Shown here in pieces: positions 15,901 through 43,290 of a stretch of DNA of 64,000 nt. This DNA is from an uncultured Alphaproteobacteria bacterium (lineage in GTDB: Bacteria; Pseudomonadota; Alphaproteobacteria; UBA7879; VGCX01). The stretch is from contig CAJXSI010000004.1 of NCBI GenBank assembly GCA_913061155.1, positions 4 to 64,003 of the forward strand. Direction: 5' to 3'. Position 1 is the stretch's first letter. Every line of letters begins with the position of its first letter. The notes below the pieces were generated by a model. It was not told the DNA's origin and did not search any database. It saw only the letters and a program-made list of their open reading frames with translations. Made by a program: the position numbers and the translations under genes.

Positions 15901-16539
15901 AGATTATAACCATCGCCAACGCCAAATTAAAACCTTTAACAACATAGTTGATCCACAACACTATTCATCACAGACAATGAAGAGGGTCTGTCTTTGCATA
16001 GAATCGTCGCCCTGGTGCTTGACACCAGGATCCAGACCAGGGGTTGCCGGATACAAACCGCCTGCCTTTTAGCTTATGACTGGATTCCGGATCCAGAAGT
16101 CTATGGCAATCAATTTGTCTGTGATGAACAGTATTATGGATCCCACGGTCAAGCCGTGGGATGACGGCAAAAAAGAAGTGTTATTTACCCAATCCCTTGT
16201 TCCGTCATTGCAAGTATCAATAGGATACGCGGTGATCCATACTGCACCTCCAACCTCGTCGCTCCGCACTTGATCCGGGATCCAGTCATAAGCTTAATGA
16301 CAAACTAAAGTTGTGTCTAGTGAATCCCGCTCTGGGCCCCGCATCAAGTGCGGGGCGACGAAGTGAGATAGGGGCATCATAAACAAAAGGCAGACGCGTC
16401 GAACTCAGTAACCTATGGTCTGGACCCCGCATCAAGTGCAGTGCGACGAAGTTGAGGGGTGTCAAGTGGCACATGGATTCTGTTTGTCGCGCCAACGCCA
16501 ACGCCAAATTAAAACCTGCAACAACATAGTTGATGACAA
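15901..16539. repeat. Palindromic mosaic array A: REP copies at 16004-16034(+), 16137-16167(-), 16256-16284(+), 16333-16361(-) and 16421-16449(-), a collapsed copy at 16081-16094, and IS110 3'-end modules at both borders
   Basis: Read directly: YGTC-stem-CTTGA-stem-CCA units, with spacer modules shared with arrays B-D. Confidence 0.9.
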
Positions 16540-16578
16540 ACTAAAACTGAAATCAAAAATATTATTTAATAAAATGGC

Positions 16579-18798
16579 TTAAGAAAAACGATTGGATCTT
16601 GGAAATCCAGGAGGGGCAAAGCGACCCGTGCTGGCGCGTTTACCAACCCATTCTTGCACATTTTCCAATGTATATTGCTTTTTCCCGTTTTGCCATGACA
16701 GACCTTCTTGCAAGGTAAAGACTTTTAAATCAGACAAACCGCCACCACGATATTTCTGTAAAATAACCCCACGACCGCGGGTCATTAAAGGAATTTCTGA
16801 AATTGGCACAACCAATAAACGACGGTTTTCACCGATCATGGCAACATAGTCCCCATCGGCAGGCACAACCACCTGGGCTTTGGCGGGGGCCTTAACATTC
16901 AAAATTTGCTTTCCATTTTTGGTTTGCGCAAAGACATCTTTTTCATTAACCATAAATCCACGCCCGTCATCAGCCGCCACCAAAAGTTGGCGTTGGCTAT
17001 CCCCTTTGGCTGTAAGAACAGTCAGAATATTACTATCATTTTCAAGGTCAATCAATAAGCGCAATGGCTCTCCAAAGCCACGGCCACGGGGAATTTTGTC
17101 CCCAATAATGGTATAAAACCGCCCATTATCAACAAAGAATAAAATCTGGTCTGTTGTTTCGGCCTTGATTATTTGGAAGACTTTATCCCCCTCTTTAAAC
17201 TTGAAATCATGATCATCTTGATGGCCTTTTACCGCACGAATCCAACCTTTTTCAGACAGAATAATGGTAATTGGTTCTTTATCAATCATGGCTTCAAGCG
17301 GCATATCTTCAACTTCGTTCGCCGTTTCAAACTGGGTACGGCGTGCCCCAATCTGGGTTGACTTCCCAAATATTTTTTGGATTTGTTTTATTTCACCTTT
17401 GATCTTTTGCCAGCAAAGTTTTTCATCTTTCAACAAACCTTCCAGTTCTGATTTTTCCGCACTTAAGGCTGAATGTTCTTGCTTTATTTCAATTTCTTCA
17501 AGCTTGCGCAAAGACCGCAAACGCATATTTAAAATGGCATCCGCCTGAATTTCGGTCAGATGCCATTTGGCCATCATGATCTGTTTTGCATCGTCTTCTT
17601 CACGAATAATGCGAATTACCTCGTCCAAGTTTAAGTAGGCAATTAAATAGCCCTCTAGAATTTGCAGACGATGATTAATTTTATCCAAGCGGTGGATGCT
17701 GCGATTTTTTAAAACCACCAAACGGTGATCTAGAAAGGCTTGAAGAACCTCTTTCAAATTTAATACACGGGGCACATTATGCCCATCCACAACATTCATA
17801 TTTAATGAAGTACGTGTTTCCAAATCTGTTTGTTTAAACAAGGCCTGCATTAAAACTTCGGGTTTTACATTGCGACTTTTGGGGATTAACACGATACGCA
17901 CATCTTCCGTGGATTCATCTTGGATATCGGCTAAAATCGGTAATTTTTTGGACAACACCAAATCAGCCAAGCGTTCAACCAAACGACTTTTGGGAACTTG
18001 ATAGGGGATTTCAGTTATTATAATTTGATATTGGCCGCCTTTGACTTCTTCTACTTCATACTTTGCGCGAATACGAAAACTGCCGCGGCCTGTTTTGTAG
18101 GACTGAAGAATAGAGGCAGGTTCTTCAACCATGATGCCCCCTGTCGGAAAATCTGGGCCTTGAACATGCTCAACCAATTCTTCAATCGTTGAACTGGGCT
18201 TTCGAATAATTTGTAACAATGCTTCGCATAATTCATCTGCATTATGGGGGGGAATACTGGTGGCCATGCCCACTGCAATTCCCTCTGACCCATTGGCTAA
18301 CAAGTTTGGGAAGGCCGATGGCATAACAATCGGTTCTTGAAATTCCCCATCATAAGTGGATTTCATGGGAACAGATTCTTCTTCTAAGCCAATCATCATG
18401 GCTTCGGCAACGGCTGTTAATTTTGCCTCTGTATAACGCATCGCCGCCGCGTTATCCCCATCAATATTTCCAAAGTTCCCTTGCCCAAGGATCAAAGGAT
18501 ATCGAATGGTAAAATCTTGGGCAAGACGCACCAATGTATTATAGACGGCCAATTCCCCATGTGGGTGAAACTTACCAATGACGTCCCCAATAATACGGGC
18601 TGATTTTTTTGGGCTGCCTTTAGAATCCAATTTCAATTGACGCATCGCAAACAATATACGACGATGCACCGGTTTTAAACCATCCCGAACATCCGGTAAG
18701 GATCTGGACATAATTGTCGACAAAGCATAAGAAAGATACCGTTCACTTAACGCTTCTTTAAAAGAGACTGGTTTTATATTGGTTTTCTGGTCTGTCAT
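16579..18798 (-). CDS. parC: DNA topoisomerase IV subunit A
   Basis: YLSYALSTIMSRSLPDVRDGLKPVHRR, GDNAAAMRYTE, no GyrA box; downstream of recO. Confidence 0.96.
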   Translation of the reverse strand: MTDQKTNIKPVSFKEALSERYLSYALSTIMSRSLPDVRDGLKPVHRRILFAMRQLKLDSKGSPKKSARIIGDVIGKFHPHGELAVYNTLVRLAQDFTIRYPLILGQGNFGNIDGDNAAAMRYTEAKLTAVAEAMMIGLEEESVPMKSTYDGEFQEPIVMPSAFPNLLANGSEGIAVGMATSIPPHNADELCEALLQIIRKPSSTIEELVEHVQGPDFPTGGIMVEEPASILQSYKTGRGSFRIRAKYEVEEVKGGQYQIIITEIPYQVPKSRLVERLADLVLSKKLPILADIQDESTEDVRIVLIPKSRNVKPEVLMQALFKQTDLETRTSLNMNVVDGHNVPRVLNLKEVLQAFLDHRLVVLKNRSIHRLDKINHRLQILEGYLIAYLNLDEVIRIIREEDDAKQIMMAKWHLTEIQADAILNMRLRSLRKLEEIEIKQEHSALSAEKSELEGLLKDEKLCWQKIKGEIKQIQKIFGKSTQIGARRTQFETANEVEDMPLEAMIDKEPITIILSEKGWIRAVKGHQDDHDFKFKEGDKVFQIIKAETTDQILFFVDNGRFYTIIGDKIPRGRGFGEPLRLLIDLENDSNILTVLTAKGDSQRQLLVAADDGRGFMVNEKDVFAQTKNGKQILNVKAPAKAQVVVPADGDYVAMIGENRRLLVVPISEIPLMTRGRGVILQKYRGGGLSDLKVFTLQEGLSWQNGKKQYTLENVQEWVGKRASTGRFAPPGFPRSNRFS

Positions 18799-18882
18799 TT
18801 TTGTCTTAAATTATATTATTTACTTAGGTATCCAACCTGATGATGTCACTGATTATAAACGATGGCGCATGCAGTAACAGCA

Positions 18883-19608
18883 TTAAATTGGATAACTCTT
18901 TAACAGATTAACTAAGCGCTCTCGCATAGTAAAGAACTCTTTATACTTGGGTTCACAATAATGAATTTTCATAAAGTATTCTGTCAATTGAAACCCTTCT
19001 ATTATTTGATTTTTATCAGCTTTTACCCCTTGTGTCAAAAATCCAGGTAACGGCAATAATTTATCTTTGTAAGGCCCTGCGGCCCCCGATGCAACGGCCC
19101 GCCCTGTTTTTGGCGATACATATTTTAAATCGTCAAAGGAACCTGTAACACAGCATTGATCTAACTTTAAGGCAAATCCCAATTCCCCTATCATCGTTAA
19201 TTCAAACTTAATATAATATTGCAGCCAATCTTCAGTCGATAAGGATTCAATGAATTTTAATAATTCTTGATATAGATATTCATAAGGGTGCCGTTCTGGC
19301 AAGACTTTTATAATAAAGCCAGTTACGGCTGATAAGGCCAGCATTTTTTGTTGGGATTCAATAATGGCCCCCAAAGAACTTTTGATTAATTCTAAAGAGA
19401 AAGTACCAAGATGTTCGTCCAATCTTGCCCGCCATGTGGCCTGAACCAGGGATCCAGGTGAAACAGCCAACCGCATATTTTTTGATTTAAGGCTACGTGC
19501 CACCCCTGTACAATGGCCATTATTTTGGGTCAAAAGGTGAATAACACCTTTTCCTTCCCCAAACGGGCGGACACCTAAAACAATGCCATTATCTTGCCAT
19601 GTCGCCAT
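18883..19608 (-). CDS. recO: DNA repair protein RecO
   Basis: W.D.GIVLG.RPFGE, WRARLDEHLG, CCVTG...YVSPKTGRAV. Confidence 0.96.
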   Translation of the reverse strand: MATWQDNGIVLGVRPFGEGKGVIHLLTQNNGHCTGVARSLKSKNMRLAVSPGSLVQATWRARLDEHLGTFSLELIKSSLGAIIESQQKMLALSAVTGFIIKVLPERHPYEYLYQELLKFIESLSTEDWLQYYIKFELTMIGELGFALKLDQCCVTGSFDDLKYVSPKTGRAVASGAAGPYKDKLLPLPGFLTQGVKADKNQIIEGFQLTEYFMKIHYCEPKYKEFFTMRERLVNLLKSYPI

Positions 19609-19648
19609 TTATATTTCCTAAGCACGGATGATATTCTTATTAATTTGC

Positions 19649-19791
19649 GGGATTGTTACCCGCTGATATTTTTCTGGAGCGCGTTTTAGGAAAAGATAGA
19701 TTTGTAGGCGCAGCGTACCTGGCGTACGGGAGACATCAGAAATAATATTTTCAGCTAAAACCATTCCAAAAGTGTGTTTTGCAACGATCCC
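19649..19791 (-). repeat. About 143-bp RPE-1-like MITE, copy 1
   Basis: Imperfect TIRs GGGATTGTTAC...GCAACGATCCC and an internal GCAGCGTACCTGGCGTACG. It aligns end to end with 59000-59138. Confidence 0.75.
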
Positions 19792-19825
19792 TTAAAGACT
19801 TTATCACTATCGGGCCCCGTATGTC

Positions 19826-19880
19826 ATCAACTATGTTGTTGCTGGTTTTAATTTGGCGTTGGCGATGGTGATAATCTTAC
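19826..19880 (-). mobile_element. Isolated 3'-end fragment of the IS110 element (encodes ..[15 protein letters not shown] followed by TTGAT)
   Basis: Near-identical to 38030-38085 and 15901-15952. Confidence 0.85.
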
Positions 19881-19979
19881 TGAATTTAACGGACTGTTGC
19901 GTAGCCGTTCTTTTTGGCCGATTTTTGACGTGGGCAGGAATCAATTGAAACAGAACAAGATCTTAAACCAGTCTATGTT

Positions 19980-21203
19980 TTAGCTTTGCTTTTTGACATG
20001 GGAAGGAATCAATAGAAACAGGGCAAAACAGCTGAACAAGCTGATGGCGGCACTGGTTAAGAACAACGTAGAATGACCGTACATATCCCAAATTGTGCCG
20101 GCAAACCAACTGGATATAAAGATCGCGATTCCCATTGTAATATAGAAAATACCAAAGGCTGTCCCGCGGATATATTGCGGCGTTACATCTGAAATAAGCG
20201 AGACAAATATAGATTGCGTAATACCAAACTGCGCCCCCCACAAAAACACCCCGCACATTACCAGAAAAATACTATGCGTTATCGCCATCGTTACCCCGGC
20301 AAAAATCATCAAAAGAAACCCGCCTAACAAGACCTTACGACGTTCCATTGTATCGGAAAGACGGCCCAAAGGATACGCAACCAAAAATTGTCCTACGTTA
20401 AAAACCAACATAACTAAGGAAATATTTTCATTCAAAAGACCTGCGTCACGAACCCTGAAAACCAGATAGGATTCCCCAAAATGGGCCAGTTGAAAAATGG
20501 CTGTCAGAATAATAATTTTCCAATACGATCGGTTAAGTTCTTTAAAGGCACTCCACCGAAATTTCTTTTCATGTTTTTCTTCATCGCTGACAGTAAATTT
20601 ATTTTTGTGATTGGGTTCTTTAACGCAAAAAACAAATAGAATCAAGGCAAACCCTGCAGGGATTGTTGCATATAAAAACAAGGTGCGTAGGGAAATATCT
20701 GAATAAGTAAGAATAACGACAACTAAGGCAGAACCAATGAAAGAGCCCGCTGTTTTCAAAGACTTCGTCAACCCGTAAGATGCACCCCGAACACCCTTAG
20801 GGGCCAAATCACCAATCAATGCATCGCGCGGAGATGCCTGAATTCCGTTACTTATCCGATCCAAAGAACGAATCCAAAAGATCCAAACAACACTGCCCGC
20901 CATGGCGAACATAGGCTTTACAAGCATGGATAACGTATACCCCACCCCTAAGACAGCTTTGCGATTTTGAAAGATATCCCCGACAGCGCCGGAAAAGATA
21001 CGGATCAGATAAGCAACGAATTCAACGAATCCATCAATGCGTCCTACTTCTGTTCTAGAGGCCCCCAGTTCAGTTTCCATGAACAAAGGCATAACACTGA
21101 ACACCATAATTGTCGCAAGGTTGATCAAAAGGCCTACAAGACCTAATATCCATATACCTTTGGGAAGACCCAGAATTTTTTTCTCGTTTATATTTGGCAT
21201 CAA
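19980..21203 (-). CDS. MFS transporter
   Basis: About 12 hydrophobic segments; GAVGDIFQNRK, RDALIGD and GRLSDTMERRK motif-A-like loops. Confidence 0.92.
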   Translation of the reverse strand: MMPNINEKKILGLPKGIWILGLVGLLINLATIMVFSVMPLFMETELGASRTEVGRIDGFVEFVAYLIRIFSGAVGDIFQNRKAVLGVGYTLSMLVKPMFAMAGSVVWIFWIRSLDRISNGIQASPRDALIGDLAPKGVRGASYGLTKSLKTAGSFIGSALVVVILTYSDISLRTLFLYATIPAGFALILFVFCVKEPNHKNKFTVSDEEKHEKKFRWSAFKELNRSYWKIIILTAIFQLAHFGESYLVFRVRDAGLLNENISLVMLVFNVGQFLVAYPLGRLSDTMERRKVLLGGFLLMIFAGVTMAITHSIFLVMCGVFLWGAQFGITQSIFVSLISDVTPQYIRGTAFGIFYITMGIAIFISSWFAGTIWDMYGHSTLFLTSAAISLFSCFALFLLIPSHVKKQS

Positions 21204-21270
21204 TTTTTTCGATATTAAAAAAGAAAGGTACTCAACTTAAGGTTAAAAAACAACCCCTATAATAAAATAA

Positions 21271-22395
21271 TTATACTAAGCCAGGCGACCTTAAAAATAC
21301 TTTTGATTTTTTATCTATGTTTAAAGGCAATTTCTGTTGAACAATTGACCGTCGCATAATCGCTGTTAAGGGAACAAATTCAACCCCCTCTGTTTGTTTT
21401 TCCTTAATCCAAGCCAATGTTTCTTGCAAAGCCTTGGTTTCTGGGCTGACAAAAACAATCAGATATTTATTTTTTTCAAGAACACGATTTGCAACTTCTT
21501 TTATATCTGTTTTTTTATCCTTAAAAGTAAAACTTAAATGCCGCCTTAAGTAAGGGGATTTCAATTCCCGCGCCACATCCAACGCCTTGCTGTCCTTTGT
21601 TGTCATTGAATCAAGAAAGATGTATCCCTTTTTCTTTAAGATAGCCAACAGCTTTTTTATCGACCCTTGATTACTTGTAAACGCACTTCCCATTTGATTA
21701 CTGACCCCAATAACATAAGGAGTTTTTCGTAAAATATTTTGGACATAATCGTTTATTGTTTTTTCTGAATCATTTGCTTTCAGCCATTTTTTCCCCTTCA
21801 TAACCTTCGGAAGTTTTGATGGGTATAAAGGTTCCATAGGAATATGCGCCACAACTTCACGGCCTTTTTTATTGGCTAATTTCGCCAATTTTTGATAATT
21901 TTTATCATCCGTTGAAATTGTATAAGTCAAAGGAATATCATAATTTTTAAGGGCCTGCCATTCCCCCTGTTTTGCCTTGTTCACATCATTAATCACAATG
22001 GCCACCATCGGCTTATTAAGCCTATAAGGCCAGGAAACAGCATTCTTTAGCCACTTTGGTTGCTGTACTTGAACAAAAGGTTTTGACGTTGTTTCTTGTT
22101 GTTTGAAAACTTGCACCAATTCCGAATCGTCAAAGGCCTGGGCTGCAATCACATCTTCTTTAAGATCATCCATGTTTTCCAAATCATAAATGGTATCATC
22201 CCCATAGGCAGATCCATTTTCTTCTGTTAAAACCTCCGCATTAACAGAGGGGGGAATAACTTTTGGAGTATCTTTTAAAGAAGGCAACAGAAAAACGATT
22301 AAGGTGGAAACCAAGGCAATTAAAATAACCCACAAAACAAATTTGTTTTGTTTATTTTTTTCAGTTATTTTGGCTGGAAGACGACGGTCTGTCAT
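21271..22395 (-). CDS. Divergent polysaccharide deacetylase family protein (YibQ/DUF610-like) with an N-terminal membrane anchor
   Basis: PMVAIVIND, HIPMEP, GVSNQMGSAFT and FLDSMT motifs. Confidence 0.8.
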   Translation of the reverse strand: MTDRRLPAKITEKNKQNKFVLWVILIALVSTLIVFLLPSLKDTPKVIPPSVNAEVLTEENGSAYGDDTIYDLENMDDLKEDVIAAQAFDDSELVQVFKQQETTSKPFVQVQQPKWLKNAVSWPYRLNKPMVAIVINDVNKAKQGEWQALKNYDIPLTYTISTDDKNYQKLAKLANKKGREVVAHIPMEPLYPSKLPKVMKGKKWLKANDSEKTINDYVQNILRKTPYVIGVSNQMGSAFTSNQGSIKKLLAILKKKGYIFLDSMTTKDSKALDVARELKSPYLRRHLSFTFKDKKTDIKEVANRVLEKNKYLIVFVSPETKALQETLAWIKEKQTEGVEFVPLTAIMRRSIVQQKLPLNIDKKSKVFLRSPGLV

Positions 22396-24322: not shown

Positions 24323-24351
24323 ATTGTCCCCTTATTATATTTTATGCGTCT

Positions 24352-24981
24352 TCATACTGTCATCTGTTCCAATTCCTTTTTTGCCATTTGATTAACGACA
24401 AAGGCTGGAATCGTAAGACCGGGAAGATATGTTTCAATATTCATCATAAACTGATCATCCAACGCATTCATAAAGTTTTGAACAAAGGCCCCCCAGATCT
24501 GTAATCTAAAAGACATTTTAACGTCGCTTTCTATGCTTACAATTCTGCTTAGGCTAACCTTTGCTTGTCCTTCTGAAAATTCAGGTAGGTCGCGAACGTC
24601 GATGACAACTTGGGCTTCAGCCCCAAACCTGTCAGGTCCACCCACCGTCAATGTTTCATGGGTATCTTTTACATCTTTCAAGCCATGTTCAACAACATTT
24701 GCATTTAAAATTTTGATAACCGCCGTGCCTTTTTTCCCGGCTGCGATGAAACGATTCCTTAACCAATGATCCAATTCAGAGATAATGGAAGCCGGCAGCA
24801 TATACTTATTGAAATCTTTTTCTTGGGGCTTATATTCATTAATAACTTGGATACTGGCAACGTTTAAAAAGATCTTTTTTTCCATATAATTAAACCCAGG
24901 CATATCAACTTTTGCTTCTTGGACACATCCGCTTACAAGCAAAACTGTCAGCAAAGAAAAGATTATGCGTTTTAATTTCAT
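24352..24981 (-). CDS. Hypothetical lipoprotein
   Basis: Lipobox LVSG-C; uninterrupted 209-aa ORF. Confidence 0.7.
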   Translation of the reverse strand: MKLKRIIFSLLTVLLVSGCVQEAKVDMPGFNYMEKKIFLNVASIQVINEYKPQEKDFNKYMLPASIISELDHWLRNRFIAAGKKGTAVIKILNANVVEHGLKDVKDTHETLTVGGPDRFGAEAQVVIDVRDLPEFSEGQAKVSLSRIVSIESDVKMSFRLQIWGAFVQNFMNALDDQFMMNIETYLPGLTIPAFVVNQMAKKELEQMTV

Positions 24982-30579: not shown

Positions 30580-30957
30580 TCGTCGCCCTGAATTTAGCCT
30601 GTCCTGGACTCCGATTAAGAAGGTCTGTCTTTGCATAAAACAGTCGCCCCGAACTTGATGCGGAATCCAGTCATAATCTAAAAGGCAGGCGGGTTGTATC
30701 GGGTGAATACTTTTCTGGACCCCGCATCAAGTGCGGGGAGACGAGAGGTTGGAGTGTCAAGTGCGGGGAGACGATTTCTATGCAAAGAAAGACCCTCTTC
30801 ATTGTCATTCCGGACTTGATCCGGAATCCACAGCGGTGTTTACTCCAGATACCTTGATTGCTGTAGACCTCTAGGACCCTGGTGTCAAGCACGGGGCGAC
30901 GACTTCTATACAAAGACAGCCCCTCTTTTCGTCTTCCCGGATTTGATTCGGGATTGC
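30580..30957. repeat. Palindromic mosaic array B: REP copies at 30642-30669(+), 30716-30744(-), 30755-30774(- partial), 30802-30830(+), 30872-30902(-) and 30929-30957(+)
   Basis: Same REP units and spacers as arrays A, C and D. Confidence 0.9.
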
Positions 30958-30970
30958 AACAAAATGGGCG

Positions 30971-34032: not shown

Positions 34033-34039
34033 AAACTGT

Positions 34040-34068: not shown

Positions 34069-34070
34069 GC

Positions 34071-34856
34071 ATGAAAACACTTGTAAAATTTCAAAAATAC
34101 ATTCCATTAATTTTTATCTTATCGGGATTAGGTTTAATCCTTTTTTTTGATCTTCATCGTTATTTAAATTTCGAAACCTTACAAAAACATCAATCTTTTT
34201 TAAAAGAATACATCCAAATATACCCCCTTTATTCGTTCTGTTTCTTTGTGCTTATTTATACCATTGCAACAGCCTTTTCGGTTCCTGGAGCAGCGATTTT
34301 AACAATTACTGGCGGGTTTTTATTTGGTACATTTATCGCATCCTTAGCCATCGTCATAGGGGCAACAACCGGGGCAACGTGTATATTTCTTGCGACGAAG
34401 TGGGCTTTTCTTGATTTTTTCAAGAAAAAAGCCGGCCGTTCCTTAAATAAGTTTTCCAAAGGTTTTTCTGAAGATGCATTTAATTACCTATTAACCTTAA
34501 GGTTAATTCCCATTTTCCCTTTCTGGTTGATAAATATTGCCCCTGCTTTTTTCAAAATTAAATTATCTACTTATATTACAGCAACGGCTTTGGGGATCAC
34601 CCCTGGTGTTATTGTCTATAGTTCTTTAGGAAATGGACTTGGGGCACTATTGGCAGCAGGGGAAACCCCAGATCTTGGCATTATTTTTCAACCAAAAATC
34701 TTTCTTCCTTTATTAGGGTTAACGATTTTATCCACCTTGCCAATTCTATGTGAACCACCACGGGGCAAGCCCCGTGGTATCCTGTCGAGCGTCACTCGAG
34801 TACAAGCTGCGCTTGCCCCCTATCTTCTTCCCCTTGCCTTTCAATATATTTTCTAA
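34071..34856 (+). CDS. TVP38/TMEM64 (YdjX-like) membrane protein whose C-terminus was replaced by an IS200 insertion
   Basis: VPGAAILTITGGFLFG and LRLIPIFPFWLINI. The native frame ends at 34749 and the tail after that is IS-derived. ATG at 34071. Confidence 0.88.
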   Translation: MKTLVKFQKYIPLIFILSGLGLILFFDLHRYLNFETLQKHQSFLKEYIQIYPLYSFCFFVLIYTIATAFSVPGAAILTITGGFLFGTFIASLAIVIGATTGATCIFLATKWAFLDFFKKKAGRSLNKFSKGFSEDAFNYLLTLRLIPIFPFWLINIAPAFFKIKLSTYITATALGITPGVIVYSSLGNGLGALLAAGETPDLGIIFQPKIFLPLLGLTILSTLPILCEPPRGKPRGILSSVTRVQAALAPYLLPLAFQYIF

Positions 34857-35301
34857 TAACTTCTTCATTTAACCCAACCGTTGAAACAAAATACCCATCT
34901 GACCATATCCCATCAATACCCCAATACGCTTTTCGCATATATTCATATTTCTTCTTTAATAATCTGCCCGTTGTTGATTTGATCCGCCGAACGACATCGC
35001 TTATTCTTATCTTTGGCGGTATCGATAATAATATATGGATATGATCCTCATCATGATTTACTTCCAACATCTTTACTTCGGGCATCCCATCATAGATGAC
35101 TCCCTTCATCACTTCACAAAAATACCTAAAGGTTCCCTCGTTGAATATCTTTCGACGATATTTTGTCACTATTACCAAATGATATTCACATTTATAGACG
35201 CAGTGTCCCTGCTTTCTTAATTTCATGCATCCTATTATACAAAGAAGATAGGGGCTTGACTACATCCACGGGGCAAGCCCCGTGGTTTTACGCCGGCTTT
35301 A
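34750..35301 (-). mobile_element. IS200/IS605-family element, tnpA only
   Basis: Identical subterminal hairpins CCACGGGGCAAGCCCCGTGG at 34758-34777 and 35266-35285. The right end is TTCAC, the left end follows TTTAT, there is no target duplication, and removing it restores the host frame. Confidence 0.9.
34792..35226 (-). CDS. tnpA: IS200-type Y1 (HUH) transposase
   Basis: YHLVIVTKYRRKI, HIHILL (HUH), WSDGYFVSTVG and catalytic YIERQ. Confidence 0.96.
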   Translation of the reverse strand: MKLRKQGHCVYKCEYHLVIVTKYRRKIFNEGTFRYFCEVMKGVIYDGMPEVKMLEVNHDEDHIHILLSIPPKIRISDVVRRIKSTTGRLLKKKYEYMRKAYWGIDGIWSDGYFVSTVGLNEEVIRKYIERQGEEDRGQAQLVLE

Positions 35302-35322
35302 ATAAAAAAATGAAAAAGAAAC

Positions 35323-36756: not shown

Positions 36757-36866
36757 GTCTTGAACGTCTTGGAAAGACTGTTCCCCAGTATTCATGGGGG
36801 TCTTGAAAATTTATAAACCATTCCCATATATATAGTAAGAACTTTAAAAACAATATATAGGGATAA

Positions 36867-37493
36867 ATGATTAAAATGATTAAGATTTTATTTAACAGAT
36901 ACACCAATTTTATTATGTTTGGCCTGGTATCAGGTGCCATCCTTGCATCCAGTATGCTTTCTGCGACAACGGCAGATCATAATGTACCTGTTTGCCCCCA
37001 AATAAATAATTCAGAGGATAAAGAACAAAAATTAAGTGATGTTTCTGCAGATGACTTACAAAAAGAAATTGCCAAGTTATCTGCAAAACAGCAGAAAGAG
37101 GTGGATGTTATAGCAAGAACCGTTTATGGCGAAGCCCGCGGGGAAAAAACGGATGATGCCTTAAAAGCCATTGCCCACGTTATTTTAAATCGAACGACTG
37201 ACAAGGAAAAGAAATGGGCCAGCTGTCCGATTAAAGTATCACAACAAAAATATCAGTTTTCTTGTTGGAACAAGAATGATCCGAACTATAAGTTAATTAC
37301 AAAGATCACACTGAAAAACAAAAATTTCAGACGGTCTTGTCGGGCTGCCCTGCAGGCTATAAAAAGTAAAGATATCACAAATGGCGCCAACCATTACCAC
37401 AGTGTCTTTATGAAACGTAAGCCACGATGGGCAAAAAATAAAAAGATGATTGCCTTGGCCCGCATCGGAAACCACAAGTTTTACAGAGCCTAA
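36867..37493 (+). CDS. Cell-wall hydrolase, SleB/CwlJ (Hydrolase_2) family
   Basis: ARTVYGEARGE, VILNR, YQFSCWN, GANHYH and IGNHKFY. Confidence 0.9.
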   Translation: MIKMIKILFNRYTNFIMFGLVSGAILASSMLSATTADHNVPVCPQINNSEDKEQKLSDVSADDLQKEIAKLSAKQQKEVDVIARTVYGEARGEKTDDALKAIAHVILNRTTDKEKKWASCPIKVSQQKYQFSCWNKNDPNYKLITKITLKNKNFRRSCRAALQAIKSKDITNGANHYHSVFMKRKPRWAKNKKMIALARIGNHKFYRA

Positions 37494-37496
37494 ATC

Positions 37497-37522
37497 AAAA
37501 GCCCCAGAAATGGGGCTTTTTT
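37497..37522. terminator. Bidirectional-type intrinsic terminator
   Basis: AAAAGCCCCA-GAAA-TGGGGCTTTTTT. Confidence 0.8.
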
Positions 37523-37666
37523 GTTCAACAATAATCAATATTTTTTAGAGAAAATCTAAGGAGATGACCTATATACGTAAGTTACGTATGCTTTAAAAGA
37601 CCTAATTTTAAAAAAAATAAAAAAGGGGTTGGCGAAAGCCCCTAAAAATAGTATATAAAAGTGTGT

Positions 37667-37742
37667 GCCGGCTTAGCTCAGTTGGTAGAGCAACTGATTT
37701 GTAATCAGTGGGTCGGGAGTTCGAGTCTTCTAGCCGGCACCA
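37667..37742 (+). tRNA. tRNA-Thr(TGT)
   Basis: GCCGGCTTAGCTCAGTTGGTAGAGC-ACTGA-TTTGTAA-TCAGT...GTTCGAGTC...CCGGCACCA. Confidence 0.97.
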
Positions 37743-37925
37743 TACTTTTTCAACGGCCTTAGGCCACCCCCCATCCTGTTTCAAAAAATAATGAAGTTAC
37801 AAAATCTTATGATTTTCTGTTACTAGACGTGTAACCATTACAAACTTGTTGCATGTGTAGATGTCTCCTGAAAGTATTTTATGTGTTGTATCAAAATCGA
37901 TTCTGAATAGCCAATCGAATTTGAT

Positions 37926-38034
37926 TCTTCGCCTCGTGTATAAGTTCACAAATTCACTGGCTGTTTTGATTCGTCGCCCCGCACTTGATGCGGGGCCCAG
38001 GGCGGTAGTCATCGGACACAATTTTCGTCATCAA
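37926..38034. repeat. Left part of mosaic array C: REP at 37971-37999(+) plus spacer modules, inverted relative to 38640-38738
   Basis: The reverse complement matches the modules at 38665-38738 and 43064-43139. Confidence 0.85.
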
Positions 38035-38835
<801 letters not shown>

Positions 38836-38910
38836 GAATAAGGAGTCTATCAAATTTATATATATACAAAGATGGATTGCTTATAGGTACGCATTAAAGC
38901 AGATACGCGT

Positions 38911-38935
38911 AAAAAAAAGAGGGGCAAAGCCCCCC
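38911..38935 (-). terminator. recA intrinsic terminator
   Basis: On the minus strand, GGGGGGCTTTGCCCCTC followed by 8 T. Confidence 0.75.
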
Positions 38936-38963
38936 AGTTTGGTAGTAAATAATAAGGTCTAAA

Positions 38964-39995
38964 TTACGCGTCAGCTTTGGCAACTTCGGCGTCTGCCAAG
39001 TTGTCGATAATACCACTTTGTTCCCGCAATTTACTTTCAATTTCATCGGCAACGTTGGGGTTTGCCTTTAAGAAACGGCGGGCAGATTCTTTCCCTTGGC
39101 CAATTTGATTGCCATTATAGGAATACCAAGATCCGGCCTTTTCAATTAAGTCAGCCTTCACGCCCAAGTCAATTAATTCACCAGTTTTGGAAATTCCTTG
39201 GCCGTACATAATATCAAATTCAACCACTTTGAACGGGGGCGCCACTTTGTTTTTTACAACTTTCACACGGGTTAGGTTTCCGACAACCTCGTCCTTATCT
39301 TTGATTGCGCCAATCCGACGAATATCAATACGAACAGAGGCATAGAATTTTAATGCATTCCCACCTGTTGTTGTTTCAGGGTTTCCAAACATAATCCCAA
39401 TTTTTTGACGAATTTGGTTAATAAAGATGACCATGGTACGGGATTTTGAAATGGATGCTGTTAATTTACGTAAGGCTTGACTCATCAACCTTGCTTGCAG
39501 ACCCATGTGGGAATCGCCCATTTCGCCTTCAATTTCGGCTTTTGGAACTAAGGCGGCGACACTGTCAACAACCAACACATCAAGGGCACCAGAACGTACC
39601 AAAGTATCGGCAATTTCCAAAGCTTGTTCCCCTGTATCTGGCTGGGAAATGATTAAGTCATTTGTGTTAACGCCAAGTTTACGTGCATAAACGGGATCCA
39701 AAGCATGTTCAGCGTCAACAAACCCACAAACACCCCCTTTTTTCTGGGCTTCGGCAATGACATGTAAGGTCAATGTTGTTTTCCCAGAACTTTCCGGTCC
39801 ATAAATTTCGATGATACGCCCGCGCGGTAATCCGCCAATACCAAGGGCCATATCTAACCCAATGGATCCTGTTGATACGGCATCAACTTGAACAGGGTTT
39901 TCATTTTGACCCAATGTCATAATGGCGCCTTTTCCAAAAGATCTTTCGATCTGTTTAAGGGCGGCGTCTAAGGCTTTGTTTTTTTCTGAACTCAT
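38964..39995 (-). CDS. recA: Recombinase RecA
   Basis: [24 protein letters not shown] and [10 protein letters not shown]. Confidence 0.99.
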
Positions 39996-40015
39996 GTCTG
40001 GACCTTTTTATCTTC

Positions 40016-40040
40016 TGGATCCCACATCAATTGCGGGACA
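40016..40040 (-). repeat. Degenerate solitary REP 20 bp upstream of recA
   Basis: TGGATCCCACATCAATTGCGGGACA resembles the reverse-strand REP consensus. Confidence 0.55.
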
Positions 40041-40287
40041 GTATTTAATGTCATTTGATAGCCATAACTTACCATGTTTTTTTGGGAAATCAAACCTATA
40101 CAATTATAATTTCCTTTAATATTTTATAGGACTGTTGCGTAGCCGTGCTTTATATAAAAACCTGACATCCCATCAAGAGTGAATTGATTTACTTATTTTC
40201 TTGTCACTCGGCGGGTTTTTGGATTTAATTGATGATCTCCATATTCTGTGATAGCCTTAGTTCATAAATAAAAATTAAGGGGTTGGG

Positions 40288-40620
40288 ATGAGGCACTTTC
40301 ACACAAAATTTTTGTATCTTTTGTTGTTTACATTTTCGGTATCAGATTCGTATGCTGCAGCTGAAGAAGGTGTCTTTCCTGTAACAAAAGTACCCATTGC
40401 CAAATTACCCTCCATTGCAAGAACAGCAATTGAAACAAGTTTTTCAAAAACTGTAAAAATACTTCCCCAAATGGCCGTAGTTTTTGGCCTTTATTCGTAT
40501 CCTTATCCACATAAAGAAAGTGCCCCTGTGTTAAGAAGACGCGCCGCCTCAAAACCCCAAATTTCTGTTAGCCCTGAAACTATGTATGGTTGGTTGGTAA
40601 GACAATTTGGGGTATTTTAA
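40288..40620 (+). CDS. Small exported hypothetical protein
   Basis: Signal-like N-terminus ending SYAAAEE; GGGG RBS-like sequence upstream; no family recognised. Confidence 0.5.
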   Translation: MRHFHTKFLYLLLFTFSVSDSYAAAEEGVFPVTKVPIAKLPSIARTAIETSFSKTVKILPQMAVVFGLYSYPYPHKESAPVLRRRAASKPQISVSPETMYGWLVRQFGVF

Positions 40621-40725
40621 TGCCAAATTTATCGCAATCTTACAGTTTTCATCATAATTCTTTCAATAAATCCTTGTCCTAAAGTGGGATCATGCATTAT
40701 ATAGAATATGTATATTTAATTATAT

Positions 40726-40752
40726 TGTCATCCCACGGCTTGACCGGGGGAT
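40726..40752 (+). repeat. Solitary REP upstream of aspS
   Basis: TGTCATCCCACGGCTTGACCGGGGGAT matches the 16137-16167 stem variant. Confidence 0.75.
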
Positions 40753-40785
40753 ATATTTTTATTTGAAACACAAAAAAGGATTATT

Positions 40786-42573
40786 ATGCATCCCTACAGA
40801 ACACATACATGTGGCCAAATACGCAAAAGTGATACCGGAACCATTGTCCGCCTATCGGGGTGGATTCATCGCAAACGTGATCATGGAAATTTACTTTTCA
40901 TCGATCTGCGGGATCATTACGGGATGAGTCAATGTGTGATCGATTCTGATAATCCGTTGTTTAAATTCGCTGAAGAAGCCCGTGTTGAAAGTGTTATTAC
41001 CGTCACGGGGCAGGTTATTGACCGCGAGTCATCAACCATTAATCAGACGCTGCCAACCGGTGAAGTCGAAGTACAAATTACAGGTATTCATGTGGAATCA
41101 CCTGCAGATGTTTTGCCTTTGCAAGTTAACGTTGACCGGGAATTCCCTGAAGAAACACGTTTAAAATACCGCTTTTTGGACTTACGCCGGGAAAAAATTC
41201 ACAGCAATATCGTTTTGCGTAATAATGTGATTTCCAGTATCCGTCGTCGCATGACCGACGCTGGGTTTATGGAATTCCAAACGCCTATTTTAACGGCCAG
41301 TTCCCCCGAAGGGGCACGTGACTTTTTGGTTCCCAGCCGTTTGCACCCGGGTCAGTTTTATGCTTTGCCGCAAGCACCCCAACAGTTCAAACAACTATTG
41401 ATGATGTCTGGTTTTGACAAATATTTCCAAATTGCCCCCTGTTTTCGGGATGAAGATGCCCGCGCAGACCGTTCCCCAGGGGAATTTTATCAGCTTGATA
41501 TGGAAATGTCTTTCGTAACCCAAGAAGATGTCTTTAATGCCATTGAACCTGTTTTACATGGTGTGTTCGAAGAATTCAGTGCGGGACGTACAGTCACACC
41601 AGCCCCGTTTCCACGCATTCCATATGCAGACGCCATGTTAAAATATGGATCTGACAAGCCAGATTTGCGTAACCCCATTTTAATCAGTGATGTGACAGAT
41701 GTTTTCCGGGGATCTGATTTTTCAATTTTTGCGAAAAACATTAATAACGGGTCTGTGGTTCGGGCCATTCCGGCCCCAGGATCGGCTGACCGTCCCCGCA
41801 GTTTCTTTGACAAAATGAATGACTGGGCACGCGGAGAAGGGGCCCCAGGCCTTGGCTATATCATTTTTGCAAATGGCGAAGCCAAAGGGCCGATTGCCAA
41901 ATTTTTGAACGCTGACCGTCTTGATATGTTGAAATCATTAACAGGTGTTCAGGATGGGGATGCTGTTTTCTTTGCTTGTGATAAAGTAAAGGGGGCGGAA
42001 CATTTGGCTGGCAAAGCCCGGACAAAGGTTGGCGAAGATCTGGATCTGATTGAAAAAAATGCGTTCCGTTTTTGTTGGGTGGTTGATTATCCGATGTATG
42101 AAATGGATGAAAAAACAGGCAAAATTCAGTTCAGTCATAATCCATTTTCCATGCCACAAGGCGGGATGGGTGTTCTTGAAACCCATGATCCCTTATCCAT
42201 TTTGGCGTATCAATATGATATTGTCTGTAATGGAATTGAACTGTGCAGTGGGGCGATTCGTAACCACTTGCCGGAAATTATGTACAAAGCTTTTGGTATT
42301 GCAGGATTTTCCAAAAAAGATTTAGAAGCCGAATTCGGCGGTATGCTACGGGCCTTGAAATTTGGCGCACCGCCACATGGAGGGTGTGCACCAGGTGTCG
42401 ACCGTATGGTGATGTTGTTAGCGGATGAGCCCAATATTCGCGAAGTTGTGGCGTTTCCAATGAACCAACAAGCCCAAGATTTGTTGATGGGGGCTCCGGG
42501 GTATGTTGATAAAGCCCACTTGCAAGAGGTCCACATTCGTGTGGTTGAGCCCCCAAAAACGGATAAGGGGTAA
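40786..42573 (+). CDS. aspS: Aspartate--tRNA ligase
   Basis: [37 protein letters not shown] and GAPPHGG. Confidence 0.98.
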
Positions 42574-42628
42574 GGTTTGGACCAGAGTTTTTTTGGTTTC
42601 ATCAGTGTTGCTTATTTATGGGTGCGCC

Positions 42629-43290
42629 GACACCAGGATCCGGTCATAAACTAAAACGGCAGGCGGGTTGTGTCTGGTGAGTGCCGCCCTGGACTCTGGT
42701 GTCAAGAACGGGGTGACGATTTCTATGCAAAGACAGGCCCTCTTCATTTGTCATTCCGGACTTGACCCGGAATCCAGAACACTGTTCATCACAGACAATT
42801 TGATTACCCTTAACAACATAGTTGATGACGAATGATTATACCCCGGTGATTCTATACGTATCGTCGCCCCGGACTTGATCCGGAATCCACAGCGGTGCTT
42901 ATCCCAGATACCTTGTCTGTCAGAGATACATGGATTCTGAACTAAATTCAGAATGACGAATTATTATACCCCGGTGATCTTATACGTATCGTCGTCCCGG
43001 ACTTGATCCGGGATCCAGTCATAATCTAAAAGGCAGGTGGGTTGTATACGGTGAATACCGCCCTGGACCCCGCATCAAGTGCGGGGCGACGAATCAAAAT
43101 AGTCAACGAATTTATGAACCCCTATATACGGGGAGACGACTTCTATGCAAAGACAACCCCTCTCAATTGTCATTCCGGACTTGATCCGGAATCCAGTCCA
43201 CCTTGGACATCTTTCTTCATTGTCATTCCGGACTTGATCCGGAATCCACAGCGGTGTTTACCGGATACAACCCGCCTGCCGTTTTGTTAC
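42629..43290. repeat. Mosaic array D (largest): REPs at 42690-42719(-), 42748-42776(+), 42861-42889(+), 42931-42959(-), 42989-43017(+), 43064-43092(-), a variant ending at 43139(-), 43167-43195(+) and 43220-43248(+); IS110 end at 42808-42826
   Basis: Read directly. Confidence 0.92.

What the first reader, a model, noticed from the sequence alone, without database searches (positions are those of the whole stretch)
15901..42832. IS110 3' end joined five times at the REP stem-end position, in either orientation: candidate REP-targeting bridge recombinase
Seen: the IS110 transposase tail (AAGATT...AACAACATAG-TTGAT) occurs at 15901-15952(+), ~16494-16534(+), 19826-19880(-), 38030-38427(-) and 42808-42826(+). 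After TTGAT comes what normally follows a REP stem. Three copies have GACRA (reverse-strand REP end) and 19826 has the degenerate GACAT. At 15953 it is CCA plus the spacer that follows forward REPs (compare 42774 CCAGAACACTGTTCATCACAGAC). At 42827 the IS end sits before GACGAA plus a spacer, exactly where an intact reverse REP sits at 42931-42960. Known: IS110 elements use a non-coding bridge RNA and a short core to recombine into specific targets; IS621 targets E. coli REPs. Inference: this IS110 targets the palindrome with a (G)AT core at the base of the stem, which works on both strands because the stem is symmetric. Its ~54-bp right end has become a re-used module of the arrays, so it may drive their assembly and shuffling.
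Basis: partly seen in the sequence, partly recalled or inferred. Interest (0 to 1): 0.82.

Follow-up and report, generated by a model that had tools for sequence, protein, structure and literature searches.

The report
Dead bridge-RNA insertion-sequence ends at REP hairpins
Five leftover right ends of an RNA-guided (IS110-type) jumping gene sit exactly at the foot of repeated DNA hairpins in an uncultured alphaproteobacterium; this shows nicely how the element picks its target, but that kind of targeting is already known.

Summary
The 15-mer AACAACATAGTTGAT occurs five times exactly, against 0.24 expected by chance. One copy is the last 130 codons of an IS110-family recombinase gene. The other four are right-end stubs of 15-56 bp.

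A metagenome contig (L095) carries an intact copy that is 90% identical in protein. Its left end folds into a canonical bridge RNA. The target loop reads TTCAGAAT and TTGTCATC, so the programmed site is TTCAGA-AT-GACAA. That is the 3' arm of one REP hairpin subtype, an AT core, and the GAC flank.

The window holds one unoccupied site of this type, at 42934-42959. A relative with 96% nucleotide identity has the intact empty hairpin where the window has the stub at 16490-16534. Eleven more distant relatives show guides that covary with REP-stem targets.

REP targeting and the AT core at the stem base are therefore supported. Three claims are not:
- The element is not alive here. The window has no left end, no bridge RNA and no N-terminal domain.
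- The tail is not a fixed 54-bp module.
- Nothing shows that it builds the arrays.

The stubs are decay products of left-side deletions, joined through 3-7-nt microhomologies. This is a new member of a known kind. The only oddity is that all five remnants in the window keep the right end.

The parts
15897..15952 (+). Relic W1: last ~56 bp of the IS (end of the recombinase gene plus right end ...CATAGTTGAT). It starts 13 bp after the stop codon of the His_Phos gene.
   Evidence: blastn against the intact IS L095, positions 1092-1147, 93% identity; exact 15-mer
15953..15975 (+). Right target flank of W1: CCACAACACTATTCATCACAGAC. This is the spacer module that normally follows the 3' arm of forward REPs, and it is the non-cognate CCA type.
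   Evidence: Same module follows the REPs at 42763(+) and 16151(-)
16472..16489 (+). Left flank of W2: CATGG+ATTCTG, which is the 5' arm of the target hairpin (loop and 3' arm lost), followed by the filler TTTGTCG.
   Evidence: The orthologous empty site in L089 reads TATGG-ATTCTGAA-CTAAA-TTCAGAAT|GACAAACTAAAACTGG
16490..16534 (+). Relic W2: last ~43 bp of the IS, with three CGCCAA units instead of two.
   Evidence: filled versus empty site comparison with L089
16535..16549 (+). Right target flank of W2: GACAAACTAAAACTG. It matches the RTG of the L095 bridge RNA exactly (GACAA).
19826..19880 (-). Relic W3: last 55 bp of the IS, with right flank GACATAC. Its left flank TTAAATTCAG looks like the loop and 3' arm of the target hairpin. 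The relic is also present at the orthologous site of the 96%-identical strain L089, so the insertion is older than their split.
38030..38427 (-). Relic W4: 3' 394-398 bp of the IS. ORF 38035-38427 encodes the C-terminal 130 aa of the recombinase (Tnp domain), 90% identical to L095. The stop codon lies 5 bp before the IS end.
   Evidence: PF02371 E=2.5e-17; 116/129 identical to L095; blastn 87% over 394 bp
38424..38465 (-). Left junction of W4. The REP-array spacer module GACGGCAGAATAAGAAGTATCCTTACACAACCCC (a paralogue of 16163-16200) is joined to the recombinase gene through the microhomology CCTTGTT/TGTT. This is an illegitimate deletion junction.
   Evidence: three-way comparison
37972..38029 (-). 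Right target flank of W4: GACGAAAATTGTGTCCGATGACTACCGCCCTGG followed by a REP. The same flank module follows the IS in L076, L086, L092 and L094/L095 at other loci.
42809..42826 (+). Relic W5: last 15-18 bp of the IS. It is joined on the left to the spacer module ...CACAGACAATTTGATTACC through the microhomology TTAACAA.
42827..42865 (+). Right target flank of W5: GACGAATGATTATACCCCGG...ATCGTC. It is a paralogue of 42955-42993, which follows an intact hairpin.
42929..42961 (+). Unoccupied cognate target: CATGG-ATTCTGAA-CTAAA-TTCAGAAT|GACGAAT (hairpin 42934-42954). The predicted insertion point lies between 42954 and 42955.
   Evidence: The only site in the window within 1 mismatch of TTCAGAATGACAA and next to a hairpin. 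It matches the LTG and RTG of L095.

Best explanation
The five sequences are dead remnants of separate copies of one insertion sequence. All are truncated from the 5' side. The element belongs to the IS110 group of the IS110 family, whose recombinase is guided by a bridge RNA.

How the live element works. It is seen intact only outside the window (L095, about 1.2 kb). It has a left end of ~200-260 nt that encodes the bridge RNA, a 312-aa DEDD/Tnp recombinase, and a right end of only 5 nt after the stop codon. The donor loop of the RNA pairs with the element's own joined ends (...CATAGTTG-AT-TGTAA...). The target loop pairs with TTCAGA-AT-GACAA. That site is the 3' arm of one REP hairpin subtype (ATTCTGAA-CTAAA-TTCAGAAT), the AT that closes the stem, and the GAC(A/G)A that flanks reversed REPs. 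Insertion therefore places the left end against the hairpin and the right end (...TTGAT) against GACRA.

What happened afterwards (inferred). Deletions removed the left end, the 5' part of the gene and often part of the hairpin or neighbouring array. The breaks were joined at 3-7-nt microhomologies, leaving stubs of 15-394 bp. Several left breakpoints lie within 3 nt of the hairpin foot. I take this to mean that the hairpin, or recombinase cutting at the left junction, makes that side fragile.

The two CCA-flanked junctions (15953 and L087) most likely come from a variant with a reprogrammed right target guide, or from half-matched off-target insertion.

The REP arrays themselves are not made by this element.
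For: Shown:
- Five exact tails. A PF02371 fragment that is 90% identical to the intact L095 recombinase.
- The L095 protein has PF01548 plus PF02371 and passes the NCBIfam equivalog 'IS110 family RNA-guided transposase' at 199 bits against a cut-off of 140.
- The L095 left end folds into a 5' hairpin plus two stem-loops with ~10-nt internal loops (MFE -63.1 kcal/mol, z = -4.5). The consensus fold of 11 elements has 25 pairs, 16 with compensatory changes.
- Guides match targets. In the 10 relatives whose left junction is known, the 8 nt after CCGT match the left target flank plus AT at 7-8 of 8 positions in nine, and at 6 of 7 in L006 with a G where the core A is expected. The 3' side of the loop is the reverse complement of AT plus 4-5 nt of right flank (GACGG, CCAGA or TACC). 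The donor loop likewise tracks CATAGTTG/TGTAAG versus GAGTTG/TGTCTC.
- For L095 the guides predict TTCAGAAT|GACAA. Observed right flanks in the close family are GACRA in 9 of 11 distinct junctions.
- Empty site in the 95.9%-identical strain: TTCAGAAT|GACAAACTAAAACTGG. The window has ...TTGAT|GACAAACTAAAACTGA at the same place.
- L086 keeps the whole hairpin directly left of an 85-bp stub.
- One naive site in the window at 42934-42959. Five TCCGGAAT|GACAA REPs with 2 mismatches are unoccupied.
- No left end, bridge RNA or N-terminal piece in the window, by tblastn, motif scans, blastn or covariance model; the best model hit is 6 bits.
- Microhomology at left junctions: CCTTGTT (W4), TTAACAA (W5), AGAA (L086), GGG (L087).

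From the literature: IS110-group architecture and REP targets (PMC11208160); REP-specific IS110-family elements (PMC1525189); a target stem-loop 5' of the insertion point acts as a specificity determinant in ISPpu10 (bioRxiv 10.64898/2026.03.19.712850).
Against: - The left junction of the intact copy L095 is not seen. The contig starts with a sequencing adaptor inside the left end, so the left target flank of this exact element is inferred from its guide, from L086 and from the empty site.
- The bridge RNA comes from a 90%-identical copy in another sample, not from the window's own genome.
- The left-side deletion mechanism is inferred from about eight junctions. W1, W3 and a fragment just outside the window start within 2 nt of the same IS position (GCGT|AAGATTAT) with different partners. 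Random deletion does not predict that.
- That outside fragment (X) lacks the right end and shares its left flank with W2, which hints at duplication of a relic-bearing segment.
- Why no left-end-only remnant exists is unexplained. In the extra contigs the sample is biased, because they were found by searching with the tail.
Confidence: 0.8

Rival explanations
1. One reading: the ~54-bp right end has become a re-used building block of the REP arrays. The element, or its surviving half-sites acting in trans with an active copy, assembles and shuffles the arrays.
For: - Each stub keeps the donor half-site, the AT core and a target flank. Published work reports RNA-guided transfer of the right-end junction (LD-RT) to a new target (bioRxiv 10.1101/2025.10.25.684509).
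- Two structural variants have a breakpoint at a tail. L084, plus one similar contig, joins the W1 tail to the right flank of W4. L081 and L091, which are independent assemblies, join the W2 tail plus GACAAACT to other DNA.
- Locus X shares its left flank with W2.
- Three relics start at the same IS position.
Against: - Tail lengths are 15, 43, 55, 56 and 394 bp.
- Four of five left junctions in the window differ and show microhomology to array modules or unique DNA.
- Arrays with the same modules occur without any tail (38430-38830, 43000-43260, 30640-30960).
- Strains also lose synteny inside a tail-free REP array, so arrays rearrange on their own.
- The variants can be homologous recombination across 24-50 identical bases, or assembly chimeras.
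Confidence: 0.12
2. The stubs were truncated on arrival. In this reading the right end is joined first, as a single strand, to the target flank. Copying then aborts, and the 5' side is sealed to the hairpin foot by microhomology, as happens with 5'-truncated LINE insertions.
For: - All five remnants in the window keep a base-perfect right junction.
- In L086, L087 and W3 the truncated copy is joined within 0-3 nt of the hairpin's 3' end through short microhomology.
- Single-strand (top-strand) insertion has been proposed for an IS110 element.
Against: - In W2 the target hairpin that is intact at the empty site has lost its loop and 3' arm.
- W4, W5 and W1 have lost the hairpin altogether, so host sequence was deleted too.
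- The published direct-transfer pathway joins the left-end junction first and about 10-fold more efficiently. That would predict left-end relics instead.
Confidence: 0.1
3. TTGATGAC(R)A is the element's own fixed right terminus, and its position next to REP-like sequence is incidental.
For: Four of five tails, and most tails from the metagenome contigs, continue with GACRA. Many distant relatives also read TTGAT-GACG.
Against: - GACAAACTAAAA is present directly after the hairpin at the empty site with no IS.
- GACGAAT... follows an intact hairpin at 42955.
- Relatives with other guides have CCAG or TACC after TTGAT.
- The flank matches the reverse complement of the right target guide in each element, which is what a programmed target looks like.
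Confidence: 0.03
4. One bridge RNA serves both sides of the palindrome. The stem arm is the same in both orientations, so the left guide suffices and both GAC and CCA junctions are on-target.
For: - Both flank types occur (W1, L087 versus the rest).
- The abstract of bioRxiv 10.64898/2026.08.31.748434, whose opening lines appeared, reports that half-matched sites can recombine. I could not open the paper itself.
Against: - L087's left flank is TCCGGG(AT), which matches only 5 of 8 positions of TTCAGAAT.
- Its right flank CCAGA matches 1 of 5 positions of GACAA.
- Relatives that use the CCAG side carry a matching guide, TCTGGAT.
- Nine of eleven junctions are on the GAC side.
Confidence: 0.15

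Closest known systems
IS621 (Escherichia coli; IS110 group; bridge RNA system of Durrant et al. 2024, PMC11208160)
   Same: - DEDD plus Tnp recombinase.
- Long left end encoding an RNA with a 5' hairpin and two stem-loops. The internal loops pair with the target and with the element's own joined ends.
- A two-base core.
- A very short right end.
- Natural targets are REP elements.
   Different: - The core is AT here (CT in IS621, from my own knowledge).
- The protein is distant: no E. coli or plasmid relative exceeds 40% identity.
- The insertion point is exactly at the 3' foot of the hairpin.
- No activity data exist for this element.
ISPpu10 / ISPpu9 (Pseudomonas putida; REP-specific IS110-family elements)
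   Same: - Insertion into one REP-type intergenic repeat.
- ISPpu10's target carries a stem-loop 5' of the insertion point that adds specificity. This is the same geometry as the hairpin lying against the left end here.
- ISPpu9 shows that parts of such elements can occur separately in a genome.
   Different: ISPpu9's separate modules are bounded by repeated boxes and move as circles. The stubs here have irregular left ends and no sign of a left recombination site.
ISRm19 (Sinorhizobium meliloti; IS110 family; 4 of 4 copies in REPs; Tobes & Pareja 2006, PMC1525189)
   Same: It is a REP-specific alphaproteobacterial IS110-family element. The rhizobial relatives found here (L013, L031-34, L049) show the same layout: hairpin, AAT, then the IS, then GACGG.
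   Different: I did not compare against the ISRm19 sequence itself, so identity with any of these loci is untested. The rhizobial copies are only 45-55% identical to the window's fragment.
IS1111 group (IS1111, IS4321/IS5075, ISPa11)
   Same: Same recombinase family and the same site-specific, RNA-guided targeting of repeated palindromic sites.
   Different: IS1111-group elements carry the guide RNA in a long right end and have 7-17-bp subterminal inverted repeats. Here the gene stops 5 bp from the right end and the RNA lies in the left end.

Membership tests
IS110 family, IS110 group (bridge-RNA-guided recombinase IS) | C-terminal Tnp domain (PF02371) with a helix-hairpin-helix region | tested here: met
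   Window ORF 38035-38427: PF02371 E=2.5e-17, 63.5 bits. L095 protein: PF02371 E=6.7e-17.
IS110 family, IS110 group (bridge-RNA-guided recombinase IS) | N-terminal DEDD RuvC-like domain (PF01548), present in the window's copies | tested here: not met
   No N-terminal fragment anywhere in the window, by tblastn with three relatives or blastn with the L095 IS. The window's copies are therefore non-functional remnants. The intact relative L095 does have PF01548 (E=1.2e-20) and passes NCBIfam NF033542 at 199 bits against a cut-off of 140.
IS110 family, IS110 group (bridge-RNA-guided recombinase IS) | Long left end encoding an RNA with a 5' stem-loop and two stem-loops that have internal loops | tested here: met
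   Met in L095 (MFE -63.1 kcal/mol, z=-4.5) and in the 11-element consensus (25 pairs, 16 with compensatory changes). It is absent from the window: the covariance model's best hit is 6 bits, E=2.7, and motif scans are negative. Rfam has no family that matches it.
IS110 family, IS110 group (bridge-RNA-guided recombinase IS) | Loop sequences complementary to the target flanks and to the element's own ends, covarying across relatives | tested here: met
   The left target guide matches the left flank plus AT at 7-8 of 8 positions in nine of ten relatives (6 of 7 in L006). The right target guide is the reverse complement of AT plus 4-5 nt of right flank. The donor guides track CATAGTTG/TGTAAG versus GAGTTG/TGTCTC.
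IS110 family, IS110 group (bridge-RNA-guided recombinase IS) | Short core present at both junctions | tested here: met
   AT is present at ...GCAAT|TGTCTC and at ...GTTGAT|GACGG in three multi-copy sets. AT also lies at the end of the hairpin at the empty site.
IS110 family, IS110 group (bridge-RNA-guided recombinase IS) | Excision as a circle and RNA-dependent insertion | not testable with these tools
   Needs an experiment or read-level circle junctions.
REP-specific insertion sequences (type 1 association of Tobes & Pareja) | Insertion at one fixed position of a REP, shown by an occupied and an empty site | tested here: met
   L089 (95.9% identity over 3,335 bp) has the intact hairpin plus GACAAACTAAAA. 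The window has the IS tail before the same flank. L006 and L031-34 show the hairpin directly against the left end.
IS1111 group | Guide RNA in a long right end, with 7-17-bp subterminal inverted repeats | tested here: not met
   The stop codon lies 5 bp from the right end, and the RNA is in the left end.
RAYT/REPIN system (considered as the maker of the REP arrays) | A REP-associated tyrosine transposase flanked by REPs | tested here: not met
   The Y1 transposase at 34792-35226 scores as IS200/IS605 (NF033573, 121.9 bits, cut-off 55). It falls below threshold for RAYT (NF047646, 27.4 bits, cut-off 80). It is nonetheless flanked by two identical palindromes.

The most novel reading that the evidence does not exclude
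Only right ends survive: five of five in the window, at least eight counting related contigs. Left breakpoints cluster at the hairpin foot and at one internal position. This asymmetry may be a footprint of the bridge-recombination mechanism in nature rather than of ordinary decay. It could reflect preferential cutting or failed strand exchange at the left junction, or insertions that are joined right-end-first and arrive truncated. The surviving right-end half-sites might also still recombine in trans with REP targets and so cause the strain-level rearrangements seen at two tails.
Probability: 0.15. Interest if true: 0.6.

Novelty: new member of a known kind. Interest (0 to 1): 0.3.

Why it matters
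This is a clean natural example of a bridge-RNA element whose programmed target can be read off and checked. The evidence includes the guide sequence, an unoccupied site in the same array, and an empty orthologous site in a sister strain.

It extends REP targeting by IS110 elements to an uncultured, probably Holosporales-like alphaproteobacterium, and to a clade with an AT core that also occurs in Legionella, Rickettsiales-type MAGs and Rhizobiales. Within that clade, elements differ in which side of the palindrome they use (GAC or CCAG). The switch seems to need only a change in the 4-5-nt right guide.

Practical value is modest. It offers another recombinase/RNA pair with a defined 13-nt site, and a caution that short IS tails in REP arrays are decay products. 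If the right-end-only decay pattern holds genome-wide, it would be a cheap natural read-out of which junction of these elements is fragile.

Tried and rejected
1. Looking for an intact copy through protein searches. The window fragment and an N-terminal query rebuilt from L076 gave only fragments or relatives at 57% identity or less. The DNA-pattern scan of metagenomes is what finally found L095.

2. I first read the 34 nt left of W4 as degenerate recombinase sequence. It is a REP-array spacer module, paralogous to 16163-16200.

3. I tested whether the truncations were made by the recombinase at an internal pseudo-site. That model predicts junctions of the form hairpin-AT-internal sequence. 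L086 (TTCAGAA|GATGG), L087 (TCCGGG|GGC) and W3 (TTCAG|TAAG) do not fit.

4. Possible extension of W3 beyond 55 bp. Identity drops to chance level, so it was not accepted.

5. Selection on the tail. The W3 tail compared with its orthologue in L089 differs about as much as the 4% genome divergence predicts in the 3' 41 nt, so there is no case for constraint.

6. Rfam (no bridge-RNA family hit) and the plasmid collection (no relative above 40% identity and no named IS).

7. Organism name from cluster members: none given. The nearest named RecA relatives, at 79-84% identity, are Alphaproteobacteria, Holosporales/Holosporaceae and Rickettsiales MAGs.

8. The preprint on half-match recombination could not be opened. 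Only the opening lines of its abstract are used.

Full report
**Observation.**
The 15-mer AACAACATAGTTGAT occurs five times without mismatch, at 15938+, 16520+, 19826-, 38030- and 42812+. Dinucleotide-preserving shuffles give 0.24 hits even when two mismatches are allowed. The copy at 38030 continues into an ORF (38035-38427, minus strand). Its 130 residues match Pfam PF02371, the C-terminal domain of IS110-family transposases, at E=2.5e-17. The stop codon lies 5 bp before ...TTGAT.

tblastn with full-length relatives and blastn with an intact close relative find only these five pieces. All five are anchored at the right end. Their lengths are 56, 43, 55, 394 and 15-18 bp.

**The repeats around them.**
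The window holds at least 22 REP-like units of the form GTC-[8-bp stem]-CTTGA-[8-bp stem]-CCAG. The loop and flanks are conserved, and the stems covary: ATTCCGGA, GCCCCGCA, TCCTGGTG, TCCCACGG. They lie in arrays built from a small set of recurring spacer modules.

The sequence after each tail is one of those modules, starting at the base where a REP stem would end:
- 42827-42865 is a paralogue of 42955-42993, which follows the hairpin ATTCTGAA-CTAAA-TTCAGAAT (42934-42954).
- 15953-15975 is the spacer that follows forward REPs.

**Relatives define the ends, the core and the target.**
A scan of representative genomes found 75 loci encoding relatives at 38-75% identity. They come from Legionella, Rickettsiales-type and other alphaproteobacterial MAGs, Rhizobiales and Sphingomonadales. 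Their right ends all finish ...(T/G)AGTTGAT, followed by GACG, CCAG or, once, TACC.

Three genomes with 3-4 identical copies give exact boundaries. On the left, a REP-like hairpin ending ...GCAAT or ...CACAGGAAT is followed directly by TGTCTC.... On the right...GAGTTGAT is followed by GACGG and then unrelated DNA. In the closer subclade (left end TGTAAGTT..., right end CATAGTTGAT), L006 sits between GTC-CCGCGA-CTTGA-TCGCGGGAT and CCAGG. That is the same REP type as in the window. The core is therefore AT, and the insertion point is the 3' foot of the hairpin.

**The bridge RNA.**
The left ends of 11 elements align and fold into two stem-loops with large internal loops. Of 25 predicted pairs, 16 show compensatory changes. 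In the first loop:
- The 8 nt after CCGT match the left target flank plus AT at 7-8 of 8 positions in nine of the ten relatives with a known left junction. In L006 the match is 6 of 7, with a G where the core A is expected.
- The 3' side is the reverse complement of AT plus 4-5 nt of the right flank. Examples are CCGTCATC for GACGG, TCTGGATC for CCAGA and GGTAAT for TACC.

The second loop tracks the element's own ends: ATAGTTG/TTACAAT in one subclade and TGAGTTG/AGACAAT in the other. This is the architecture described for IS621 and the IS110 group, with a long left end, a short right end and two programmable loops (PMC11208160). Rfam has no model for it.

**An intact close copy and its programmed site.**
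Protein searches found no intact close relative. A DNA-pattern scan of metagenome contigs with the tail did. L095 carries a 312-aa open reading frame that is 90% identical to the window's fragment. It has PF01548 plus PF02371 and scores above threshold for the NCBIfam 'IS110 family RNA-guided transposase'. The contig also holds most of the left end, although it begins with a sequencing adaptor.

That left end folds into a 5' hairpin plus two internal-loop stem-loops (-63.1 kcal/mol, z=-4.5). Its target loop reads TTCAGAAT ... TTGTCATC, which predicts the site TTCAGA-AT-GACAA. Three independent checks agree:
- Right flanks in the close family are GACRA in 9 of 11 distinct junctions.
- The only site in the window within one mismatch of the prediction and next to a hairpin is 42947-42959. 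Five TCCGGAAT|GACAA REPs with two mismatches are unoccupied.
- L089, a contig 95.9% identical to the window over 3.3 kb, has the intact hairpin and flank ...TATGG-ATTCTGAA-CTAAA-TTCAGAAT|GACAAACTAAAACTGG... at the position where the window has CATGG-ATTCTG-TTTGTCG-[43-bp tail]|GACAAACTAAAACTGA....

It also shows that GAC belongs to the target and not to the element.

**What the window does not contain.**
There is no left end, no bridge RNA and no N-terminal domain. Motif scans, blastn and a covariance model built from the 11 left ends all fail; the best model hit is 6 bits with filters off. The 'candidate recombinase' is therefore not present in working form in these 64 kb. An intact copy exists in metagenomes that also contain this organism's loci: L088 is identical to the window and L091 nearly so. 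Whether that intact copy lies in the same genome is not shown.

**How the stubs arose (inferred).**
- W4's gene fragment is joined to an array spacer module (a paralogue of 16163-16200) across CCTTGTT/TGTT.
- W5 is joined to another spacer module across TTAACAA.
- In L086 the complete target hairpin is joined to an 85-bp stub across AGAA.
- In L087 a REP 3' arm is joined to a 125-bp stub across GGG.
- In W2 half of the hairpin is gone.
- W1 starts 13 bp after a gene's stop codon.

These are illegitimate deletions that removed the left part of the element, often with host sequence. They do not fit recombinase action at an internal pseudo-core, because the predicted hairpin-AT-X junctions are not seen.

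Three of about eight left breakpoints lie within 3 nt of the hairpin foot. My explanation for why the right end is what survives is that the left junction is fragile. The cause could be the hairpin itself, through replication slippage at a stem base, which is established for palindromes generally. It could also be more frequent recombinase cutting at the left junction, as reported for another IS110 element. This step is inference.

W3 is older than the split from L089, which carries it too. W2 is younger.

**Points that do not fit neatly.**
- W1, W3 and a 12-13-nt fragment just outside the window (locus X in L096/L097) begin within 2 nt of the same IS position, with different left partners. 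X lacks the right end and shares the left flank CACATGGATT(C)TGTTTG with W2.
- Two structural variants have a breakpoint at a tail. L084 joins the W1 tail to W4's right flank, which would be a 22-kb inversion. L081 and L091 join the W2 tail to other DNA.
However, strains also lose synteny inside a REP array with no tail. The variants could also be homologous exchange or chimeric assembly.
- The CCA-flanked junctions (W1, L087) do not match the L095 guides: 5 of 8 positions on the left and 1 of 5 on the right for L087. A variant with a TCTGGAT-type guide, as in L003, L006 and L001, is the simplest explanation. Half-matched insertion is the alternative.

**Comparison with known systems and verdict.**
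REP-specific IS110-family elements are well documented: IS621, ISPpu9, ISPpu10, ISPa11 and ISRm19 (PMC1525189). So is RNA guidance (PMC11208160). A target stem-loop on the left side of the insertion point has been shown to matter for ISPpu10. The element here is an IS110-group member by every sequence-level test. It is not an IS1111-group member. No plasmid-borne relative exceeds 40% identity.

The host is an uncultured alphaproteobacterium. Its nearest named RecA relatives, at 79-84% identity, are Alphaproteobacteria, Holosporales and Rickettsiales MAGs.

The finding is real and its core interpretation is right, but it is a new member of a known kind, seen here only as wreckage. The array-assembly claim is not supported. 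The right-end-only decay pattern is the one feature that might repay a genome-wide look.

Noticed in passing
window 34757-35285: An IS200/IS605-type Y1 transposase gene (34792-35226, minus strand; NF033573 121.9 bits; below threshold for RAYT). It is flanked on both sides by the same perfect palindrome CCACGGGGCAAGCCCCGTGG (34757-34778 and 35266-35285). This is a RAYT-like arrangement in a genome full of REPs.
   Followed up: partly
window 15953-16470, 30640-30960, 37960-38000, 38430-38830, 42620-43260, 43620-43650: At least 22 REPs of the form GTC-stem-CTTGA-stem-CCAG. The loop and flanks are conserved and the stems covary. They are arranged in arrays made from a handful of recurring spacer modules. 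No enzyme that makes them was identified.
   Followed up: partly
L096/L097 8088-8117 (same genome, about 1.4 kb beyond the right edge of the window): CACATGGATT-TGTTTG-GGG-TAAGATTATAAC-TTTT. This is 12-13 nt of the IS (the start of the '54-bp tail', with W1's A variant) without the right end. It is preceded by the same left flank as relic W2. It may be a duplicated and differently eroded relic.
   Followed up: partly
L084 (ENA ERZ1743974 NODE_10587), corresponding to window 15952 and 38029: This contig, and one similar contig not shown, continues from the W1 tail into the right flank of the W4 copy. That is what an inversion of the 22 kb between the two oppositely oriented relics would produce. 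It could also be an assembly chimera across 24 identical bases.
   Followed up: partly
L081 3700-3806 and L091 272-360, corresponding to window 16535-16545: Two independent assemblies agree with the window through the W2 tail plus GACAAACT, then continue with unrelated DNA (GGGGGAAGATAGC...). L079 ends at this point. This looks like a strain-level rearrangement with its breakpoint at the relic's right flank.
   Followed up: partly
L096 versus L097, locus positions ~7300-7640: Two strains share everything to the right of a REP array and have entirely different genes to its left (MutS/SecB/RND versus enolase/CTP synthase/SecG). REP arrays without IS tails are therefore also synteny breakpoints.
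   Followed up: partly
L053 3380-3400: One of three otherwise identical IS copies in an alphaproteobacterial MAG has ...CATCTGAGT-CGCAAT-GACGG at its right junction instead of ...CATCTGAGTTGAT-GACGG. Target-type bases replace the last donor bases to the left of the core.
   Followed up: no
L086 10783-10826: The target hairpin ATTCTGAA...TTCAGAA carries a second hairpin (TCCTGGATCGGAGTCCAGGA) nested in its loop, which suggests REPs inserting into REPs.
   Followed up: no
window 16294-16310: TTAATGACAAACTAAAG, inside a REP-doublet spacer, resembles the relic junction TTGATGACAAACTAAAA at 16530-16546 (15 of 17) but has no IS sequence to its left. It could be a paralogous flank module or a 5-nt vestige.
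   Followed up: no
window 16490-16507: Relic W2 has three tandem CGCCAA units where the intact IS has two, which points to slippage after inactivation.
   Followed up: no
L095 ends (1926-1976 and 1-15) and L083 ~2870-2914: These public metagenome contigs end in Nextera adaptor sequence (CTGTCTCTTATACACATCT...). In L095 the adaptor replaces the first ~50-60 nt of the IS left end.
   Followed up: no
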